Positions 2,635-9,711 of a DNA stretch of 59,552 nucleotides are shown here, piece by piece. Position 1 is the stretch's first letter; every line of letters starts with the position of its first letter. The translations under genes were made by a program, and so were the position numbers. The stretch spans positions 1 to 59,552 of the forward strand of contig DATBTF010000092.1 of NCBI GenBank assembly GCA_036559405.1, read 5' to 3'. The stretch comes from Bdellovibrionota bacterium (GTDB lineage Bacteria; Bdellovibrionota; UBA1018; CAIPTA01). A model generated the notes under the pieces. The model was not told the origin of the DNA. It did no database searches and was given only the letters and a program-made list of their open reading frames with translations.

Positions 2635-2674
2635 TAACGCAATGCGAACTCAGCGCTGAGTTCGCATTGCGTTA
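2635..2674. repeat. Perfect 40-bp palindrome TAACGCAATGCGAACTCAGC|GCTGAGTTCGCATTGCGTTA abutting the top6A stop codon
   Basis: Read directly; every position pairs around the centre 2654|2655. The arms TGCGAACTC/GAGTTCGCA recur at 19439-19470. Position fits a top6 operon terminator hairpin, but there is no T-tract. Confidence 0.9.
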
Positions 2675-3838
2675 TCACACGTACAAACCCTTCTTGATCT
2701 TCTCAAGAATGATCTTCTCCATCATCAGCTTGTCTTTGGGGTCCACGGAAAAGAGCGACTGCTGCTCGCAGCGGATCTTCTCCTTCATCAGCCAGCGGAG
2801 AATATCAGAGAGGCCTTTGTTCTTTTTATCGAGAAAGAAGGGATCGCCCTCGAGAGCATCTTTCGCCTTCTTCAGCGCGCGCGCTTCGGCCGGGTCATTT
2901 TCTTTTACTTTGTAGTAAGGCAGGTCGTATTTCTTCACGTCATCCGGCAGCACGCCGAGAAAACGCACAGAAGGAGCCGAGAAATGCTGGTTCCGGATCA
3001 GCGAGGCCGCTGAGCCCGCCTTCAAAGTACGGAAAATATTTTGCATCGTATAGGCGTCAAGATCGCCGAAGAAGTAGATTGGAATGTCGAGCTCTTCCTG
3101 GATCAGCTTACACCAGCCACGCACGCCGTTCGAAGGAACGCCTTGGGCACCGATCAGAATCGAATTATTGCGCTTGGTAAAACCGTTGCTCTGGAGAGTG
3201 TTCGCCGTGCCTTCGGATTCCACCACCAGAGCGAAATCGATCTTCTTCTTCGCCTTGAGCCTGAGCGACTGCGGCTTGTTCTTGGGCTGATAAGGCGCGG
3301 TTCCCAAGGTAGAGAGATCCACCGTCGCCTTGGTGCCGTCAGCCATGGTTTCCGTTACTACAAGCTGCTGGGAATAGGTTTGCCCGCCGCGGTCGTTGGC
3401 GAAGCAGTTGAGCTCCTCGCGATACACCTGAAGCATATCGCCGATAAAATCGATAATGGAGTCGCTCTCGTCCTGGTCTTCGAAGTCCAGAGGCTTGGTG
3501 CGCGGGTTCTTTTTGATGAGACCTTTACATATGTAATAGATCTCCCTTTTTGTGTTCACACTCTGGCTGGCCAGGTTATTGAGCAGGATCTCGAGGATGA
3601 ATACCACGCGAGCGAGCTTCTGCACCGAGCTTACGTTCAGCTCTGTTCGCACTACCTTATCGCCGGGAGTGAGATAGCCCACGCGCGGATTGTAAATAGC
3701 GTTATCGAGCGAGGCCTTCACCGCCTCGAGCACCGGCCGCTTGCTCTTCTCGAGGTCGGAAAGCATCCTGTCCGCGAGGATGCGCGCTTCTTTGGGAATA
3801 TCGATCTTAAGGTCGCGGATCGTAATCATCTTGGACAT
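2675..3838 (-). CDS. top6A: DNA topoisomerase VI subunit A (Spo11/Top6A family)
   Basis: 387 aa. KREIYY block (catalytic Tyr region of the 5Y-CAP domain). Toprim block IPIYFFGDLDAYTMQNIFRTLKAGS. Starts 9 nt after the top6B stop. Confidence 0.9.
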   Translation of the reverse strand: MSKMITIRDLKIDIPKEARILADRMLSDLEKSKRPVLEAVKASLDNAIYNPRVGYLTPGDKVVRTELNVSSVQKLARVVFILEILLNNLASQSVNTKREIYYICKGLIKKNPRTKPLDFEDQDESDSIIDFIGDMLQVYREELNCFANDRGGQTYSQQLVVTETMADGTKATVDLSTLGTAPYQPKNKPQSLRLKAKKKIDFALVVESEGTANTLQSNGFTKRNNSILIGAQGVPSNGVRGWCKLIQEELDIPIYFFGDLDAYTMQNIFRTLKAGSAASLIRNQHFSAPSVRFLGVLPDDVKKYDLPYYKVKENDPAEARALKKAKDALEGDPFFLDKKNKGLSDILRWLMKEKIRCEQQSLFSVDPKDKLMMEKIILEKIKKGLYV

Positions 3839-3847
3839 AATGTGTTC

Positions 3848-5650
3848 CTATTTCGACTTCGACGAAGATTTTTTGCCCGAGCTTTTCGCCTTTTTCTTGG
3901 CGGCCACTACCCCTGCTTTCGCGCCTGGAAAGAGTTCGGCCTGCTCCCCTGGCTTGAGCTTGGGAGCCTCGGGAGCCGGTGCCTCTTCTGCGGCGGCGGG
4001 CGGAGCATCGGGATCCTCGCCTCTTTTCTTGGCTTCGCGGGCGCGCAGGTCTTTGAGCTTGGCATCGGCCTCGGCCAGCTCCTCGTGGGCGTCTTTGGAG
4101 TCGCGTCCGAGCAGCTTCATCAGCCCTTCCTCGGCCTTTTTCTTTCGGGCCTCGGAGCTCTTCGTGATGTTCACAAGGCTTTCCACCAGGATCGGGCCGA
4201 ACTGCTCGATATGTGCTAATTTTCTTTCAAGATCAGCCTCTTTCGTCTCTTTTCTGATGTGGCGGCTGAGCTTCTGGCCGGCCTGAATCAGGGCCCGGCG
4301 GATCTCCTCCACCAGCTCTTCCGACGCGTCCACGGTCTCTTTCGAGGCGTTCTTAAATTTAATGAACGGAGACACCACCGAAACGGCGAATACATAGGGC
4401 CCGATCGGCAGGCTCTCTTTGGGCTGCCCCAGGCCATAGGTTTTCCAGTTCACGCTCTCGATCGCCCAGGTGATAGCGCAGCCCGATTTATCGAACTGCA
4501 GCGGTACACGGTTGGCGAATCGCAAAAGCTGTATGGGGGCATCCGCTTCCAAATTCCTATTTTTAAACCGCGCAAGTGCCACTTCCACGGCCACAGGCTT
4601 GAAGTCGCAGATCGCGGGCTTGCGGGTGACCACGGAGAAAAAGTCGATCTCACCGAGCCGACCGATGGATTTGCTCATCGCCTCTTCGCCCACGTTGAGC
4701 ACGCTCTTGGTGGAAGGCGCCATCAGCTCGATGTCCTGCATGGCGGAAAATACTTTTTTGAACTCATCCTCTTTCAAGGAGGTGAGCGACTTATCCAGCA
4801 GGCCTTTGGTGATGCCCTTGCCTTTGAGATCCTTGATGGCCTGGTCGGAAACCCGGGAAAATCCCGTGCGCAAAAACTTCTCGAACGAAACTTTCCCGAA
4901 CAAATGCGCATGCGTGATGAATTCACCCAGTTTAAAGGTGTGAGGATGCGGCAACGTGGCCTCGGGAACGCGCGGAACTTCCTGGCTCACCCGCTCCACA
5001 TGCACCCAGTCGTTGTCGAGCAGCTTATAATGCAGGGTCATGTGCGGGTTCACCAGCACCGTGCCCTCGAGATAGGTGATCAAGCCGCCGTCGCCGTTCA
5101 GCTGGATACGTCCGTCGAGGCTGAACTCGCAGCGCACGCCGCTTTTTTTATCGTCCCAGTCGATGGTGTCTTTTTTGCGGAGCACGCCCGTATTGGATTT
5201 GATGTCCACGTCCACCTGCGCGGTCACAGCCTTGCGCATATTCGCCTTTTTGGTGGTGACGAAGGCGCCCTTAGCGTTCGTGAGCTGGGCCCAGGTAGTG
5301 GCGGCCGAGATCCCGATCCCTTGCTGGCCACGCGAACATTGCCCTTTGCCGAACTTGGAGCTGGCCAGGTATTCGCCGAATACCTTGGCGAGGTCGTCGG
5401 GGTCGATGCCGGGACCGTTGTCTTCCACGGCGATATGGATGAGCTCGGTATTCTTGGTGGAGCCCACGCCCTTGCGTTTAATTTCTACCGTAAGCTCAGG
5501 CAGGATGCCTGCGTGCTCGCAGGCGTCGAGGGAGTTGTCCACGGCCTCTTTCAGCGTGGTGAGCACCGCCTTAAGGGGGGAAGAAAAGCCCACCTGCTGG
5601 AGGTTCTTGGCAAAGTATTCGGCTGTGCTGCTTTTTGTGATCTTGCTCAT
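3848..5650 (-). CDS. top6B: DNA topoisomerase VI subunit B (GHKL ATPase) with Lys/Ala-rich C-terminal tail
   Basis: 600 aa. Bergerat-fold motifs LKEAVDNSLDA (N-box), EDNGPGI (G1), GQQGIGIS (G2), followed by a transducer-like region. The last ~95 aa are low-complexity and end AKKKAKSSGKKSSSKSK. Confidence 0.9.
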   Translation of the reverse strand: MSKITKSSTAEYFAKNLQQVGFSSPLKAVLTTLKEAVDNSLDACEHAGILPELTVEIKRKGVGSTKNTELIHIAVEDNGPGIDPDDLAKVFGEYLASSKFGKGQCSRGQQGIGISAATTWAQLTNAKGAFVTTKKANMRKAVTAQVDVDIKSNTGVLRKKDTIDWDDKKSGVRCEFSLDGRIQLNGDGGLITYLEGTVLVNPHMTLHYKLLDNDWVHVERVSQEVPRVPEATLPHPHTFKLGEFITHAHLFGKVSFEKFLRTGFSRVSDQAIKDLKGKGITKGLLDKSLTSLKEDEFKKVFSAMQDIELMAPSTKSVLNVGEEAMSKSIGRLGEIDFFSVVTRKPAICDFKPVAVEVALARFKNRNLEADAPIQLLRFANRVPLQFDKSGCAITWAIESVNWKTYGLGQPKESLPIGPYVFAVSVVSPFIKFKNASKETVDASEELVEEIRRALIQAGQKLSRHIRKETKEADLERKLAHIEQFGPILVESLVNITKSSEARKKKAEEGLMKLLGRDSKDAHEELAEADAKLKDLRAREAKKRGEDPDAPPAAAEEAPAPEAPKLKPGEQAELFPGAKAGVVAAKKKAKSSGKKSSSKSK

Positions 5651-5897
5651 TCAACCAGCGCCTTGGAACGGGCGCTCCCCTCAACACAATAGGACCAACG
5701 CAGAAAACACAGGCCCCCCTGCGCCGCTTCCGACACATAGCGAAAAAATCCGAGCACGGGAACCTCATTAAAATATGGGGAGAAGGGAGGCGTTTTCGCA
5801 AGGGAAATTGTCAAACGAGCCCGGAAGTGGGTGAAAAGGAGGAAAACAGCGCAGAGCAGAAATAGAAAAGCCGCGTGAGCGGAGCAAAATGAATAAC

Positions 5898-5932
5898 CAA
5901 AAAAAAGAGCGCTGGGCGAAACCCAGCGCTCT
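5898..5932 (-). terminator. Rho-independent terminator downstream of 5963-6388
   Basis: Minus strand reads AGAGCGCTGGG-TTTCG-CCCAGCGCTCT followed by a T8 run (11-bp stem, 5-nt loop). Confidence 0.65.
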
Positions 5933-5962
5933 TCGAAATACCCATCATGGGCAGATCAATCG

Positions 5963-6388
5963 TTAATCTTCGTCGGTCTCCACCTTCACCGTGATGATTT
6001 GGGTCTCGCAGACCATCGCCCCGCGAACGTTGACGGCAACGTTCTGCTCGCCATCCTTCAACTTCGCCTTAATGCATTTCAGATAGGTGCGGTTATCCAG
6101 GTGCGCCGCATTCGCCATATAAGGTGAGATGCCGTAGGCGCCATAGGGCTGGTAGTACATCGGGCCATACATCGGCCCCCCCCAGTACATGGGCCGCCAG
6201 CCCACCCCGTACCAAGGCATAAAGCCCGTCGGACCCACTATGTAAGGAGTGGCAGGCGCTACGATCACCTTTTTAGTCACCACCGTACCCGTTACCACGA
6301 CCTCGTCAGAAAACGCCGTAGCCGAAGCCAGCAGAGCTGAGGCTCCGAATGCCAGGCCCACGGGCCATAGTCTTTTTGGGAATTTCAT
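5963..6388 (-). CDS. Secreted hypothetical protein (Gly/Pro/Tyr/Met-rich middle)
   Basis: Signal peptide MKFPKRLWPVGLAFGASALLASATAFS. ATG at 6388 sits after GGTGGAG; the ORF-track start at 6397 is a GTG three codons upstream. Own terminator. No family recognised. Confidence 0.6.
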   Translation of the reverse strand: MKFPKRLWPVGLAFGASALLASATAFSDEVVVTGTVVTKKVIVAPATPYIVGPTGFMPWYGVGWRPMYWGGPMYGPMYYQPYGAYGISPYMANAAHLDNRTYLKCIKAKLKDGEQNVAVNVRGAMVCETQIITVKVETDED

Positions 6389-6575
6389 ATTCTCCACCCC
6401 TATCCGTCTTCTTATTTTATCAGGGGAACAGAGCGCTTTCAGCTGTCTCTTCGCGGAGTCAGGGTGCCCTCAATTTCCCGTTGTTTTTTGGCGAAGAACT
6501 TTTGGACAGTTTCCGCCCCTGAACCCCCGGAGCTTCTATGAGAAATCTTGTTTATGCCGCGCTGGGCGTCACAGC

Positions 6576-6657: not shown

Positions 6658-6852
6658 ATGGCTAAGAAGAAAATGGAAGCTCTCGTGATCGCCAGCAAAG
6701 CAAAACAAATACTGAAAAAAGCGGGCTGCAACACCGCGGGTGACGCCTTCGACGGCCTCAATGGCGTAATCTACTGGTATCTCGAGTCGGCTGCTAAGCG
6801 CGCCAAGGCGAACGGCCGCAAAACCGTGCGCTCCCACGACTTCTGCGTCTAA
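6658..6852 (+). CDS. Bacterial histone-fold protein (singlet histone, HMf/Bd0055-like)
   Basis: 64 aa: MAKKKMEALVIASKAKQILKKAGCNTAGDAFDGLNGVIYWYLESAAKRAKANGRKTVRSHDFCV. The C-terminal AKRAKANGRKTVRSHDF matches the loop2/alpha3 signature ..AKHAGRKTIKAEDI.. of archaeal HMf-type histones. Length and helix pattern fit one histone fold. Monocistronic, with its own promoter candidate and terminator. Confidence 0.75.
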   Translation: MAKKKMEALVIASKAKQILKKAGCNTAGDAFDGLNGVIYWYLESAAKRAKANGRKTVRSHDFCV

Positions 6853-6870
6853 GCAAAGTCTCTGGAAACA

Positions 6871-6898
6871 AAAAAGCCTCCCGCCCGGGAGGCTTTTT
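6871..6898. terminator. Bidirectional rho-independent terminator between the histone gene and the J-protein gene
   Basis: AAAAAA-GCCTCCC-GCCC-GGGAGGC-TTTTT: A-run upstream and T-run downstream, between convergent genes. Confidence 0.65.
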
Positions 6899-6903
6899 GC
6901 TTT

Positions 6904-7737
6904 TCAGGAAGCCTTCTTTTCCCGAATCGACCTCACCGCATTCTCCAGTTCCGCGGAGATCACCTCCGGCAGCACGATCAGCAGCTTCACCAGCAGATCG
7001 CCCCTCGCCCCGCCCTTGGCGTGAATGCCCTTGCCGTTCACGCGCAATCGCCGGCCGCTATTGGAGTGGCGCGGGATGCGCAGCTGCACCTGCCCTTCCG
7101 GCGTGGGCACCGCGAGCTCACCCCCGAGCACGGCAGTTTCCAGCGGAACAGCCAGCTCGTGCACGAGCGTGGAGCCCTCCAAGGTGAAGCGTTCATCCGG
7201 CGCGAGAAAGAGCTCCACATACACATCTCCAGGCGCGCCTCCGCCCAGGCCCGGGCCGCCCTGTCCTTGAAAGCGCAGCTTTTGCCCCGGCGCAACGCCC
7301 CTGGGAATGCGCACATGCAGGCGTTTGCCCGAAGGAAGGCGGATCTCACGCTCGCCACCCAGAATGGATTCTCTCAGGCTCATCTCCATCTGGTACACCT
7401 CATCCACTCCGGGCATGTGGAAGCCGCCCGCACGCCCGCGCCGGCGTCCGCCGAAAAGTCCTGAGAAAAAATCCTCATCGAATTCATACTGCGGCTGGGC
7501 ACGGGGCCCGGCCCCGGCCTCGTCCATTCCCCACTCACCCTTGTCGAACTTCGCGCGGTTTTCGGGAGTGCCCACGATCTCGTAGGCCTGGTTGATATCT
7601 TTGAAGCGGTGCTCAGCCTGCTTGTTTCCCGGGTTGCGATCCGGATGGAATTTTTTCGCCAGCTTGCGGTAGGCGTTCTTGATCTCGTCCTGCGAGGCAG
7701 TACGGGAGACACCCAGCTGCTGATACGGGTCCAGCAT
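6904..7737 (-). CDS. DnaJ-class II / CbpA-like J-domain co-chaperone (no zinc finger)
   Basis: J domain DPYQQLGVSRTASQDEIKNAYRKLAKKFHPDRNPG (HPD). Gly/Phe/Arg linker. DnaJ C-terminal beta domains (GAPGDVYVEL, LRVNGKGI). No CxxCxGxG repeats. ATG at 7737 is preferred to the ORF-track start at 7857, which would overlap ftsH. Confidence 0.85.
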   Translation of the reverse strand: MLDPYQQLGVSRTASQDEIKNAYRKLAKKFHPDRNPGNKQAEHRFKDINQAYEIVGTPENRAKFDKGEWGMDEAGAGPRAQPQYEFDEDFFSGLFGGRRRGRAGGFHMPGVDEVYQMEMSLRESILGGEREIRLPSGKRLHVRIPRGVAPGQKLRFQGQGGPGLGGGAPGDVYVELFLAPDERFTLEGSTLVHELAVPLETAVLGGELAVPTPEGQVQLRIPRHSNSGRRLRVNGKGIHAKGGARGDLLVKLLIVLPEVISAELENAVRSIREKKAS

Positions 7738-7839
7738 GAAGGGAACGGAGCAAAGCCGGTGCCATAGTGCTGCGCCAATCTGTCCCAGCAAAAGGCGCTT
7801 TATGGTACGGAACCTGCTCCTCAATGCCCTGGAGGAAAA

Positions 7840-9711
7840 ATGGCAGCATCTCCCCAAGGTTCTCCGCCTCCCCTGCGCGGGCGCAGCTTCAATTTTTTCA
7901 TGCTCTTCGTGGTTTTATGGACCGCGCTGCTGGTGCGCGACTATATGAACTACCGCGCGAACGTGGAAACCATCCCCTACAGCCGCTTTCTCGCCCTGCT
8001 CGACGAAAAAAGGATAACCGAGGCCGAGGTGTCCGAGACAACTATCCGCGGTACCTTGAAGGAACCAGGGCCTGGAAAATCCGGTTTATTCTTCACGGTA
8101 CGTCTCGAGGATCCCACCCTCCCCCAGCACCTGCGTGAGGCCGGAGTAGGCACCTTCGCCGCGGTGTCGGAAAACAACTTCCTGCGCGACCTGCTTTCCT
8201 GGATCGTGCCCGCCGCTGTGATGGTGGGCCTGTGGTGGCTGCTGCTCTCGCGCATGGGCGGACAGGCCCGCACGGACTTCTTCTCGCTGGGAAAATCCAA
8301 AGCTAGGGTCTACGCCGAGAAAGATCTCACAACCCGCTTCAGCGACGTGGCCGGCGTGGACGAGGCAAAGGAGGAGCTGCGCGAGGTGGTGGAATTCCTG
8401 AAAAACCCATCGGCCTATTCGCGCCTCGGCGGCCGCATGCCGAAAGGAATTTTGCTGGTGGGCCCGCCCGGCACAGGCAAAACTTTGCTGGCGCGTGCTG
8501 TGGCCGGCGAGGCGGGCGTACCGTTCTTTTCCATCAACGGCTCCGAATTCGTGGAGCTCTTCGTGGGCATGGGTGCCGCCCGCGTGCGTGACCTCTTCCA
8601 GCAGGCGCGGGCCCAGGCGCCCTGTATCGTTTTCATCGACGAGCTGGATGCGCTGGGAAGGGCCCGCGGCCTTCACGCGATCACCGGAGGCTCCAATGAC
8701 GAAAAGGAACAAACCCTCAACCAGCTGCTCGCCGAGCTCGACGGCTTCGATCCCTCCTCGGGATTCGTACTGCTCGCCGCCACGAACCGCCCGGAGGTGC
8801 TCGACCCCGCCCTGCTCCGTGCCGGACGTTTCGACCGGCAGATTCTCGTGGACAAGCCCGACCGGCCCGGGCGCCGCCAGATACTTTCCGTACACTTGAA
8901 GCCGGTGCACGTCTCGAGCACCGTGGACCTCGACATGCTGGCCTCACTCACGGCGGGATTTTCGGGAGCCGACCTCGCCCGACTGGCCAACGAGGCGGCA
9001 CTGATCGCCACCCGCCGTAAAGCCGAGCTCGTGGAACCCCAGGATTTCACCGAGGCCATCGAACGCCTCGTGGCTGGGCTGGAACGCAAGACACGCCTTC
9101 TCAGCCCGGAGGAGAGGCAGCGCGTGGCGTTTCACGAGATGGGCCACGCCACTGTTGCCCTAGCTTTGGACAAGGGCGAGGCCGTGCACAAGGTGACGAT
9201 CATTCCCCGGGGATTAGGCTCGCTGGGATATACGTTTCGCCGCCCGATAGAGGACCGTTACCTCGTGAACCGCGCAGAACTTGAGGTCAAGCTGGCGATG
9301 ATCCTCGGGGGGAGAGCCGCCGAGCTGCTCTTCTTCCCCGACATCTCTACGGGCGCCGCTGACGATCTCGACAAGGCCACCGACATCGCGCGCAGCATGA
9401 TCACCCGTTATGGAATGAGCCGTGAGCTAGGCCCCGTGACCTTCGAAAAGGAATCGCAGAGCTTTCTGGGCGCCGGCGCGATGTTCCGGGAAAAGCTCTA
9501 TAGCGAGCAGACCGCGTACAGCATTGACCAGGAGGTGCGCCGGCTGATCGACACCGCCCTGAACGCCGCCGCGCGCTGCCTCCATGAAAATGAGGGCTTC
9601 GTGCGGGATTCAGCCCGCCGCCTGGTCGAACAGGAAACTCTGAACGAGGCGGAACTCAAAGCCCTCTGGGAAAAGCGCGGAAAGGCCCACAGCAGACCTC
9701 GATTGGCCTGA
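7840..9711 (+). CDS. ftsH: ATP-dependent zinc metalloprotease FtsH
   Basis: Two N-terminal TM segments. Walker [19 protein letters not shown]. Walker [10 protein letters not shown]. Zinc motif HEMGHA. GGAGG 4 nt upstream of the ATG. Confidence 0.95.

What the first reader, a model, noticed from the sequence alone, without database searches (positions are those of the whole stretch)
2675..5650. Archaeal/eukaryote-type topoisomerase VI operon (top6B-top6A) about 1 kb from the histone gene and next to a CbpA-like J-protein
Both subunits are recognisable from catalytic motifs (GHKL N/G boxes; REIYY and the Toprim DxD). Their spacing of 9 nt suggests translational coupling. Type IIB topoisomerases are sporadic in bacteria. 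Here the operon, one secreted-protein gene, the histone-fold gene and a CbpA-like gene lie within 5 kb; E. coli CbpA is nucleoid-associated. This suggests, but does not prove, a linked chromatin and topology module.
Basis: partly seen in the sequence, partly recalled or inferred. Interest (0 to 1): 0.6.

Follow-up and report, generated by a model that had tools for sequence, protein, structure and literature searches.

The report
Bacterial topoisomerase VI operon beside histone
This is a real, intact two-gene topoisomerase VI operon in an uncultured Bdellovibrionota bacterium, which is normal for that phylum; I found no evidence that the neighbouring histone and J-protein genes form a working unit with it, although a histone gene does lie next to topo VI in many related families.

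Summary
top6B (3848-5650, minus strand) and top6A (2675-3838, minus strand) are intact and 9 nt apart. Both pass NCBI's topo VI equivalog cut-offs and keep every catalytic residue I checked.

The enzyme is not sporadic in this lineage. It was found in 122 of 127 genomes of the window's class and 265 of 401 of the phylum. Relatives have no second GyrA/GyrB-type gene, so topo VI is probably their dedicated decatenase.

The 'chromatin and topology module' reading is only partly supported:
- This histone paralog (HA) lies beside top6BA in only three genomes of one genus.
- It does so in 1 of 80 family-level loci and 0 of 20 loci from other families.
- The J-protein, FtsH, the 144-aa protein and the kinase pair never recur next to top6.
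- The genes are separate transcription units.
- One large family has histones (112/114) but no topo VI (0/114).

Two results are new:
- In other families of the class, a different histone (HBb-like, HB) lies within 10 kb downstream of top6A in 41 of 104 genomes. It sits inside a conserved block of unrelated housekeeping genes.
- Trees show this family's top6BA came by horizontal transfer from the Bdellovibrio/Pseudobdellovibrio lineage.

Overall this is an ordinary enzyme with a modestly interesting history.

The parts
3848..5650 (-). top6B: topoisomerase VI subunit B (GHKL ATPase, then transducer, then a 96-aa Ala/Lys/Glu-rich C-terminal tail)
   Evidence: NF003218 scores 507 bits (cut-off 274). 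Pfam finds Topo-VIb_trans and HATPase_c. Best solved relative is M. mazei 2Q2E_B, E 1.8e-78. E35, N39, D77, the G-loop 106-117 and K437 are conserved.
2675..3838 (-). top6A: topoisomerase VI subunit A (5Y-CAP with catalytic Tyr102, then Toprim)
   Evidence: NF003335 scores 437.5 bits (cut-off 424). Pfam finds TP6A_N and Toprim. Best solved relative is 1D3Y, E 6.9e-35. R98, Y102, E207, D259 and D261 are invariant in relatives.
3839..3847 (-). 9-nt top6B-top6A spacer; the AGGA ribosome-binding motif overlaps the top6B stop codon
   Evidence: Sequence read directly. Junctions are tight in 33 related loci.
5651..5903 (-). 253-bp upstream region that should hold the operon's own promoter (not identified)
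   Evidence: It lies between the terminator of the upstream gene and the top6B ATG. The sigma-70 consensus scan found nothing here.
5904..5934 (-). Intrinsic terminator of the 144-aa gene (14-bp stem plus T run); it insulates top6BA from upstream transcription
2635..2674 (.). Perfect 40-bp palindrome directly after the top6A stop; probably a terminator-like hairpin, with no T tract
Evidence: Sequence read.
5963..6397 (-). 144-aa ORF with a hydrophobic N-terminus, probably exported; not part of the operon
   Evidence: No Pfam or NCBIfam hit. No homolog near top6 in any other locus.
6658..6852 (+). HA-type bacterial histone gene; monocistronic and divergent from top6B
   Evidence: Weak NF043032 hit. 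558 homologs were found. It has its own RBS and shares a bidirectional terminator. In G001 and G002 it lies within 250 bp downstream of top6A; G004 also carries it, but on a contig without top6.
6866..6895 (.). Bidirectional terminator hairpin shared by the histone gene and the convergent J-protein gene
   Evidence: Sequence aaaaaagcctcccgcccgggaggctttttg.
6904..7857 (-). Class-B J-protein (J domain plus DnaJ_C, no zinc finger). The true start is probably the ATG at 7737 (Met41 of the listed ORF). Not linked to top6 elsewhere.
   Evidence: Pfam DnaJ and DnaJ_C. CbpA model NF007618 scores 138.6 bits against a cut-off of 403. No homolog in any other top6 locus.

Best explanation
The two genes encode a working A2B2 type IIB topoisomerase (topo VI).

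Inferred mechanism, taken from the solved archaeal enzymes:
- The B subunits dimerise on ATP (GHKL fold; E35 general base, N39 Mg2+ ligand, K437 switch lysine) and capture one DNA duplex.
- The A subunits cut a second duplex with Tyr102 and the Mg2+-binding Toprim residues E207, D259 and D261.
- The first duplex passes through the break, which is then resealed.
- The net effect is relaxation of supercoils and unlinking of daughter chromosomes.

Relatives have gyrase but no second GyrA/GyrB-type pair, meaning no topo IV. Topo VI is therefore probably the dedicated decatenase of this lineage. It is transcribed as its own two-gene operon with coupled translation.

The operon in this family (f1) is a xenolog, acquired from the Bdellovibrio/Pseudobdellovibrio lineage of the same phylum. 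It replaced or re-supplied the native copy.

Its position next to an HA-type histone gene, a J-protein gene and an FtsH paralog is a local, genus-level arrangement. Nothing I tested gives it functional meaning.

What is shown: gene identity, residue conservation, distribution, synteny counts and tree incongruence. What is inferred: enzymatic activity, the decatenase role, and that the adjacency has no function.
For: Identity and residues.

Operon anatomy.

Distribution: top6A in 39/41 relatives, 122/127 of the class and 265/401 of the phylum.

No topo IV:
- Each of 24 relatives has one GyrA-type gene. The exceptions are one genome with a split gene and one with a second, 80-bit partial hit.
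- All 15 genomes checked have one GyrB-type gene.
- This agrees with Allen & Maxwell 2024 (PMC11302465), who report topo VI-bearing bacteria outside Pseudomonadota and Terrabacteria as lacking topo IV.

Horizontal transfer:
- The Top6A and Top6B trees place f1 inside the f21+f34 clade, which holds B. bacteriovorus and Pseudobdellovibrio. Support is 98 and 95 (SH-aLRT) on the full sets and 100/100 on a 14-taxon set.
- Monophyly of the window's own class is rejected, AU p = 1.6e-53, 1.1e-56 and 5.6e-66.
- GyrB from the same 14 genomes recovers the class (82/79) and f1+f2 (100/100). It rejects an f1+f21+f34 clade (p = 2.4e-5).
- Identities agree. Top6A is 83% between f1 and f21 but about 70% between f1 and f4/f5. 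GyrB is 52% against 57-59%, and GyrA 57-58% against 57-61%.

Local nature of the adjacency.
Against: - No activity, expression or interaction data exist for this organism, which is a 76%-complete MAG.
- A histone gene next to top6A does recur in other families of the class (41/104 genomes). Schwab et al. 2024 (PMC11390915, Fig. 7b legend) colour topo VI-like genes beside IHF-type histone operons in other phyla. A functional link is therefore not excluded.
- Within the genus, the HA gene stays near top6BA through at least one rearrangement. That could reflect selection.
- The transfer inference uses one control gene tree (GyrB) plus GyrA identities, not a multi-marker species tree.
- There is no compositional signature of transfer: GC3 is 0.72-0.74, within the window's range.
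Confidence: 0.8

Rival explanations
1. Topo VI and bacterial histones are functional partners: the enzyme is adapted to work on histone-coated DNA or is co-regulated with it. On this reading gene proximity is kept by selection. The J-protein could be a third, chaperone-type member.
For: There are two separate proximity patterns, involving different histone paralogs and different top6 lineages:
- HB sits next to the native operon in at least 7 families of the class (41/104 genomes, always downstream of top6A; convergent in 40 of 41).
- HA sits next to the imported operon in three genomes of this genus, on either side of it.

Random placement would put a given histone gene within 10 kb of top6BA in under 1% of genomes. 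A published figure legend also shows topo VI-like genes beside IHF-histone operons (PMC11390915). Top6B often carries a Lys-rich tail.
Against: - The genes are never co-oriented or co-transcribed.
- The HB linkage sits in a block where FKBP, UppP, a globin-like gene and aconitase are kept equally well. Family f5 keeps the block without HB. Parts of the block (FKBP, aconitase) flank top6 even in families with no histone nearby.
- No histone lies within 8-10 kb in 79/80 and 20/20 other loci, including complete Bdellovibrio genomes.
- Family f22 has histones (112/114) but no topo VI (0/114). About 14 genomes have top6A with no detectable histone.
- The J-protein never recurs.
- Related genomes are not independent samples.
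Confidence: 0.12
2. The pair is not a housekeeping topoisomerase. It would instead be a mobile-element type IIB enzyme (topo VIII or Mini-A-like) or a Spo11-like break-maker carried on an island.
For: The operon was horizontally acquired. Its neighbours in this genus are variable.
Against: - The A and B subunits are separate and full-length, and both pass the topo VI equivalog cut-offs.
- Identity to the near-universal Bdellovibrionota copies is 70-88%.
- No integrase, repeats or plasmid genes appeared in the ORFs of the first 9 kb.
- The ATPase and transducer residues needed for strand passage are intact.
Confidence: 0.03

Closest known systems
Topoisomerase VI of Bdellovibrio bacteriovorus (Bd2864/Bd2865; listed in PMC11318664 and PMC11302465)
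   Same: Same two-gene operon. Top6A is 83% identical and Top6B 76-77% identical. The window's copy groups with it in the trees. In neither organism is the main (HBb-like) histone gene next to top6; in strain Bd5 the best-scoring listed histone match lies about 178 kb from top6A.
   Different: The host belongs to a different class by GyrB. The window's Top6B ends in a Lys/Ala-rich tail. An HA-type histone gene lies 1 kb upstream.
Archaeal topo VI with solved structures (M. mazei 2Q2E, S. shibatae 2ZBK, M. jannaschii 1D3Y)
   Same: Same domain order and all catalytic residues. The mechanism is inferred from these enzymes.
   Different: These are much more distant matches than the Bdellovibrionota copies (E 1.8e-78 for Top6B, 6.9e-35 for Top6A). 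The host is bacterial and has gyrase. The C-terminal region after the transducer differs.
IHF-histone operons with neighbouring topo VI-like genes (Schwab et al. 2024, PMC11390915, Fig. 7b)
   Same: A histone-fold gene and a type IIB topoisomerase gene lie in one neighbourhood in bacteria.
   Different: The histone class is different (a C-terminal dimerising tail). Those histones are in an operon with an IHF-like gene, and the phyla differ. The paper does not discuss the topoisomerase. I could not inspect those loci. The one Elusimicrobiota-labelled genome I could read showed no obvious histone-fold ORF beside its distant top6 pair; I read the ORFs by eye, and my histone profile would not detect IHF-type histones.
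E. coli CbpA/CbpM (for the neighbouring J-protein)
   Same: J domain plus DnaJ C-terminal domain, with no zinc finger.
   Different: It is far below the CbpA equivalog cut-off (138.6 against 403 bits). There is no cbpM-like partner gene next to it. DNA binding is untested.

Membership tests
DNA topoisomerase VI (type IIB), subunit A | 5Y-CAP/winged-helix domain with the catalytic tyrosine and its arginine (RExYY) | tested here: met
   KREIYY at 97-102. Y102 aligns to M. jannaschii Y103. Invariant in 12 relatives.
DNA topoisomerase VI (type IIB), subunit A | Toprim domain with a Glu and a DxD motif for Mg2+ | tested here: met
   E207, D259 and D261 align to E197, D249 and D251. Pfam PF21180, E 7.5e-38.
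DNA topoisomerase VI (type IIB), subunit A | Score above the curated equivalog cut-off | tested here: met
   NF003335 scores 437.5 bits against 424. The margin is narrow.
DNA topoisomerase VI (type IIB), subunit B | GHKL ATPase with the N-box (Glu base, Asn-Mg2+), the adenine-binding Asp and the glycine-rich ATP lid | tested here: met
   E35, N39, D77 and SRGQQGIGISAA 106-117, aligned to S. shibatae E38/N42 and following residues.
DNA topoisomerase VI (type IIB), subunit B | Transducer domain with the switch lysine that contacts the gamma-phosphate | tested here: met
   PF09239, E 1.4e-44. K437 aligns to S. shibatae K427.
DNA topoisomerase VI (type IIB), subunit B | Helix-two-turn-helix (H2TH) module between the ATPase and the transducer | tested here: inconclusive
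   The region (about residues 230-310) aligns continuously with M. mazei and S. shibatae Top6B. I did not model or score the module on its own.
DNA topoisomerase VI (type IIB), holoenzyme | Separate A and B genes, adjacent and co-transcribed (unlike fused topo VIII) | tested here: met
   The gap is 9 nt, both genes are on the same strand, and terminator-like hairpins flank the pair.
DNA topoisomerase VI (type IIB), holoenzyme | ATP-dependent relaxation and decatenation, with 2-nt staggered cleavage | not testable with these tools
   Needs purified enzyme.
CbpA (curved-DNA-binding J-protein) | Score above the CbpA equivalog cut-off | tested here: not met
   NF007618 scores 138.6 bits against 403.
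CbpA (curved-DNA-binding J-protein) | Adjacent cbpM-type modulator gene | tested here: not met
   The neighbours are the histone gene (convergent) and an FtsH paralog (divergent).
   The J-protein never recurs. HA is next to top6 in three genomes only.
   44 of 111 genomes holding both genes have them within 10 kb on one contig. However, the linkage sits within a larger conserved block.

The most novel reading that the evidence does not exclude
Bacterial histones and topo VI are a recurrent functional pair. On this reading, the native operon was ancestrally linked to the major HBb-type histone gene in this class. After the operon was replaced by horizontal transfer in family f1, a different histone (HA) again came to lie beside it. 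Together with the topo VI-like genes beside IHF-histone operons in other phyla, that would mean the enzyme is specialised for histone-coated bacterial chromatin.
Probability: 0.1. Interest if true: 0.7.

Novelty: new member of a known kind. Interest (0 to 1): 0.3.

Why it matters
Taken alone, the operon is ordinary. Topo VI is already recorded in Bdellovibrio bacteriovorus, and in this phylum it is the rule.

Three points add something:
- These bacteria seem to rely on topo VI instead of topo IV. Its role in separating the many chromosome copies made during filamentous, non-binary growth is therefore worth testing in the laboratory model B. bacteriovorus.
- The operon moved between classes within the phylum, which shows that even a core decatenase can be replaced.
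- The major histone gene sits beside top6A in many families. I found no paper reporting this. It gives a cheap, testable lead on whether bacterial histones and topo VI work together, although the present evidence favours simple inherited gene order.

Tried and rejected
- **Reaching other phyla.** I scanned genome contigs with a Top6A alignment to reach Planctomycetota, Myxococcota and Omnitrophota. The 80 loci kept were all 79-88% identical Bdellovibrio-type copies. This was useful for family-level synteny, but the cross-phylum test could not be done.
- **HA as a local duplicate of HB.** I rejected the idea that the window's histone arose by local duplication of the class's HB gene. HA homologs at 73-85% identity occur in MAGs labelled Elusimicrobiota and in family f27, none next to top6. 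The HB ortholog of this family sits in a different conserved context (G000:C202).
- **IHF-histone link.** I looked for it in one Elusimicrobiota-labelled complete genome that has a distant top6 pair. No obvious histone-fold ORF lay beside it, though my profile would not detect IHF-type histones.
- **Compositional evidence for transfer.** There is none. GC and GC3 of top6BA are within the window's range.
- **rpoB as a species marker.** It is missing from this 76%-complete MAG, so I used GyrA and GyrB from same-genus genomes instead.
- **FtsH and Lon as controls.** Both have several paralogs with patchy distribution, so they are unsuitable.
- **Promoter.** The sigma-70 consensus scan found none in the 253-bp region upstream of top6B.
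- **Structure prediction.** Not run. The sequence matches to solved structures already settle the fold.
Full report
**1. What is in the sequence**

On the minus strand, a 600-aa ORF (3848-5650) is followed after 9 nt by a 387-aa ORF (2675-3838).

The first ORF is Top6B:
- Pfam finds the topo VI-B transducer (E 1.4e-44) and a GHKL ATPase.
- NCBIfam NF003218 gives 507 bits against a cut-off of 274.

The second ORF is Top6A:
- Pfam finds the type IIB N-terminal domain and the Top6A/Spo11 Toprim domain.
- NF003335 gives 437.5 bits against a cut-off of 424.

Both align to solved archaeal enzymes. Top6A keeps R98, Y102 (M. jannaschii Y103), E207, D259 and D261. These residues are invariant in twelve relatives. 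Top6B keeps E35 and N39 (S. shibatae E38/N42), D77, the glycine-rich lid (106-117) and K437, which aligns to the switch lysine K427.

The junction reads TAG-gaacacatt-ATG, with AGGA overlapping the stop codon. Tight or overlapping junctions are the rule in 33 related loci. Coupled translation is therefore plausible.

Transcription boundaries:
- A strong terminator (5934-5904) ends the upstream 144-aa gene.
- A perfect 40-bp palindrome follows the top6A stop.
- The histone gene (6658-6852, plus strand) has its own ribosome-binding site. It shares a bidirectional terminator with the convergent J-protein gene.

These are therefore separate transcription units.

**2. How common topo VI is in this lineage**

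The window is contig C92 of a 76%-complete MAG. Contigs of same-genus genomes match, by length and coordinates, NCBI records titled uncultured Bdellovibrionales, Bacteriovoracia or Oligoflexia bacterium.

Top6A was found in:
- 39 of 41 close relatives;
- 122 of 127 genomes of the same class;
- 265 of 401 genomes sampled across the phylum.

It is not sporadic here. Topo VI of B. bacteriovorus is already listed in the literature (Bd2864; PMC11318664, PMC11302465).

Relatives carry a single GyrA-type gene and a single GyrB-type gene, so they have no topo IV. This agrees with Allen & Maxwell 2024. It makes topo VI the likely dedicated decatenase, which is an inference.

**3. Is the histone adjacency conserved?**

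A histone profile built from hits in relatives separates three kinds of histone gene in the class:
- HB, which is HBb-like, 60-75 aa, and the main copy;
- HA, the kind in this window;
- HC, a longer form with a Cys-rich N-terminal extension.

In the class, 111 genomes hold both a histone gene and top6A. In 44 of them the two lie within 10 kb on one contig. This is a lower bound, because many assemblies are fragmented.

Outside family f1 the figure is 41 of 104. In those 41 genomes the histone is always HB and always downstream of top6A, and it is convergent with top6A in 40 of them. This holds in at least seven families. None of the genomes sampled from four other families shows the linkage (f5 0/19, f8 0/7, f2 0/2, f3 0/1).

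Gene maps show that HB sits in a conserved block: top6B, top6A, a globin-like gene, HB, an FKBP isomerase, UppP, two further genes, then aconitase.
- The non-chromatin genes are kept near top6A at least as often as HB.
- Family f5 keeps the whole block without HB.
- FKBP and aconitase flank top6 even in families of other classes that have no histone nearby.

The simplest reading is inherited gene order in a slowly rearranging region.

**4. The window's own family**

In family f1 the HB ortholog lies in a different conserved context. In this genome that is contig C202. The histone next to top6BA is HA.

HA is close to top6BA in only three genomes of the genus:
- G001 and G002 have it 87 and 243 bp downstream of top6A, convergent.
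- The window has it 1 kb upstream of top6B, in the same orientation relative to the operon.

This implies a small transposition rather than an inversion.

G004 keeps HA next to the lon block, but a contig break hides any link to top6. G003 has no HA.

Wider sampling does not extend the pattern:
- Of 80 top6 loci from GTDB species with 79-88% identical Top6A, including complete Bdellovibrio and Pseudobdellovibrio genomes, only the G002 contig has a histone ORF within 10 kb.
- Twenty loci from eight other families have none within 8 kb.
- HA homologs at 73-85% identity occur in MAGs labelled Elusimicrobiota and in family f27, never beside top6.
- The J-protein, the FtsH paralog, the 144-aa protein and the kinase/regulator pair have no counterpart in any other top6 locus.

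**5. Co-occurrence across the phylum**

Histone genes were found in 373 of 401 genomes and top6A in 265 of 401.
- Family f22 has histones in 112 of 114 genomes and top6A in none.
- Families f15 and f19 have neither gene.
- About 14 good-quality genomes have top6A but no histone detectable with this profile.

Neither gene depends on the other.

**6. Horizontal origin**

The window's Top6A is 83% identical to that of B. bacteriovorus and Pseudobdellovibrio (family f21, a different class). It is only about 70% identical to Top6A from families of its own class, including f2 of its own order.

Tree results:
- Maximum-likelihood trees of 55 Top6A and 52 Top6B sequences nest f1 inside f21+f34 (SH-aLRT 98 and 95).
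- They reject monophyly of the class (AU p = 1.6e-53 and 1.1e-56).
- On 14 genomes with both markers, GyrB recovers the class (82/79) and f1+f2 (100/100). It rejects an f1+f21+f34 clade (p = 2.4e-5).
- On the same 14 genomes, Top6A gives f1+f21+f34 at 100/100 and rejects the class (p = 5.6e-66).
- GyrA and GyrB identities agree with the GyrB tree.

The operon of this family was therefore acquired from the Bdellovibrio-type lineage. That also explains why it lies outside the ancestral block. GC and GC3 show no foreign signature, so the transfer is not recent.

Two f1 genomes lack top6A altogether, at 97% and 86% completeness. This fits a history of loss and re-supply.

**7. Comparison with what is known**

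The enzyme meets every sequence-level criterion for topo VI that I could test. The H2TH module was aligned but not scored on its own.

The J-protein has CbpA-like architecture but fails the CbpA model and has no cbpM partner.

I found no paper linking Bdellovibrionota histones with topo VI. The nearest hint is a figure legend in Schwab et al. 2024, which colours topo VI-like genes beside IHF-histone operons in other phyla. I could not inspect those loci.

**8. Verdict**

This is a real and ordinary topo VI operon for this phylum, with an intra-phylum horizontal origin.

The proposed chromatin and topology module is not supported for the gene set in this window. A weaker version of the idea survives as a lead: histone genes lie near top6A more often than chance in this class. 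Inherited synteny explains most of that, and I put about 10% on a true functional link.

Noticed in passing
window 3848-4135 (Top6B residues 505-600); related loci L025-L061: The Ala/Lys/Glu-rich C-terminal tail of Top6B varies widely across the phylum. It ends in a Lys-rich run in f1, f2 (G009), f3, f8, f11, f12 and some f4 genomes. It is short and acidic in family f5.
   Followed up: partly
genomes G006 and G008 (family f1): Neither genome has a detectable top6A, at 97% and 86% completeness. G006 has just one GyrA-type gene; no GyrA match was found in G008. On this evidence G006 has no dedicated decatenase.
   Followed up: no
window 7840-9711 (+): This FtsH is an accessory paralog with patchy distribution. 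It is 62% identical to a copy in a family-f5 genome and 54% to one in Pseudobdellovibrio, but only 47% to the best match in a same-genus genome. It lies divergent from the J-protein and about 4 kb from lon, which looks like a protein-quality-control cluster.
   Followed up: partly
loci L030-L039, L080, L090, L096, L102-L104: An FKBP-type isomerase gene with a hydrophobic N-terminus lies directly upstream of the HB histone gene and is co-oriented with it. This holds in most families of the class, even where top6 is not nearby. It is a tighter pairing than HB with top6A.
   Followed up: no
loci L088, L089, L091-L093, L097: A third histone type (HC) carries a long N-terminal extension. Where that extension is complete it has a Cys-rich, zinc-ribbon-like segment (CTTCK...CS..C...C) and a conserved NHRDAGAFE motif. 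It resembles the ZZ/Bd3044-type histones described by Schwab et al..
   Followed up: no
G249 (= B. bacteriovorus strain Bd5, NZ_CP168968.1) C1:2772286-2773904 and C1:4172-6564: In this complete genome top6B is split into two overlapping frames, and gyrB matches in two pieces, each with an in-frame TGA. These are probably assembly or sequencing errors rather than biology.
   Followed up: no
L220 9381-12429 (G431, complete genome labelled Elusimicrobiota, CP096137.1): This genome carries a distant top6A (E 1e-23 to the class profile) and a top6B read as two overlapping ORFs. It also has an HA-type histone (82% identical to the window's) about 950 kb away.
   Followed up: partly
window 2635-2674: A perfect 40-bp palindrome (taacgcaatgcgaactcagcgctgagttcgcattgcgtta) starts right after the top6A stop and has no T tract.
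   Followed up: no
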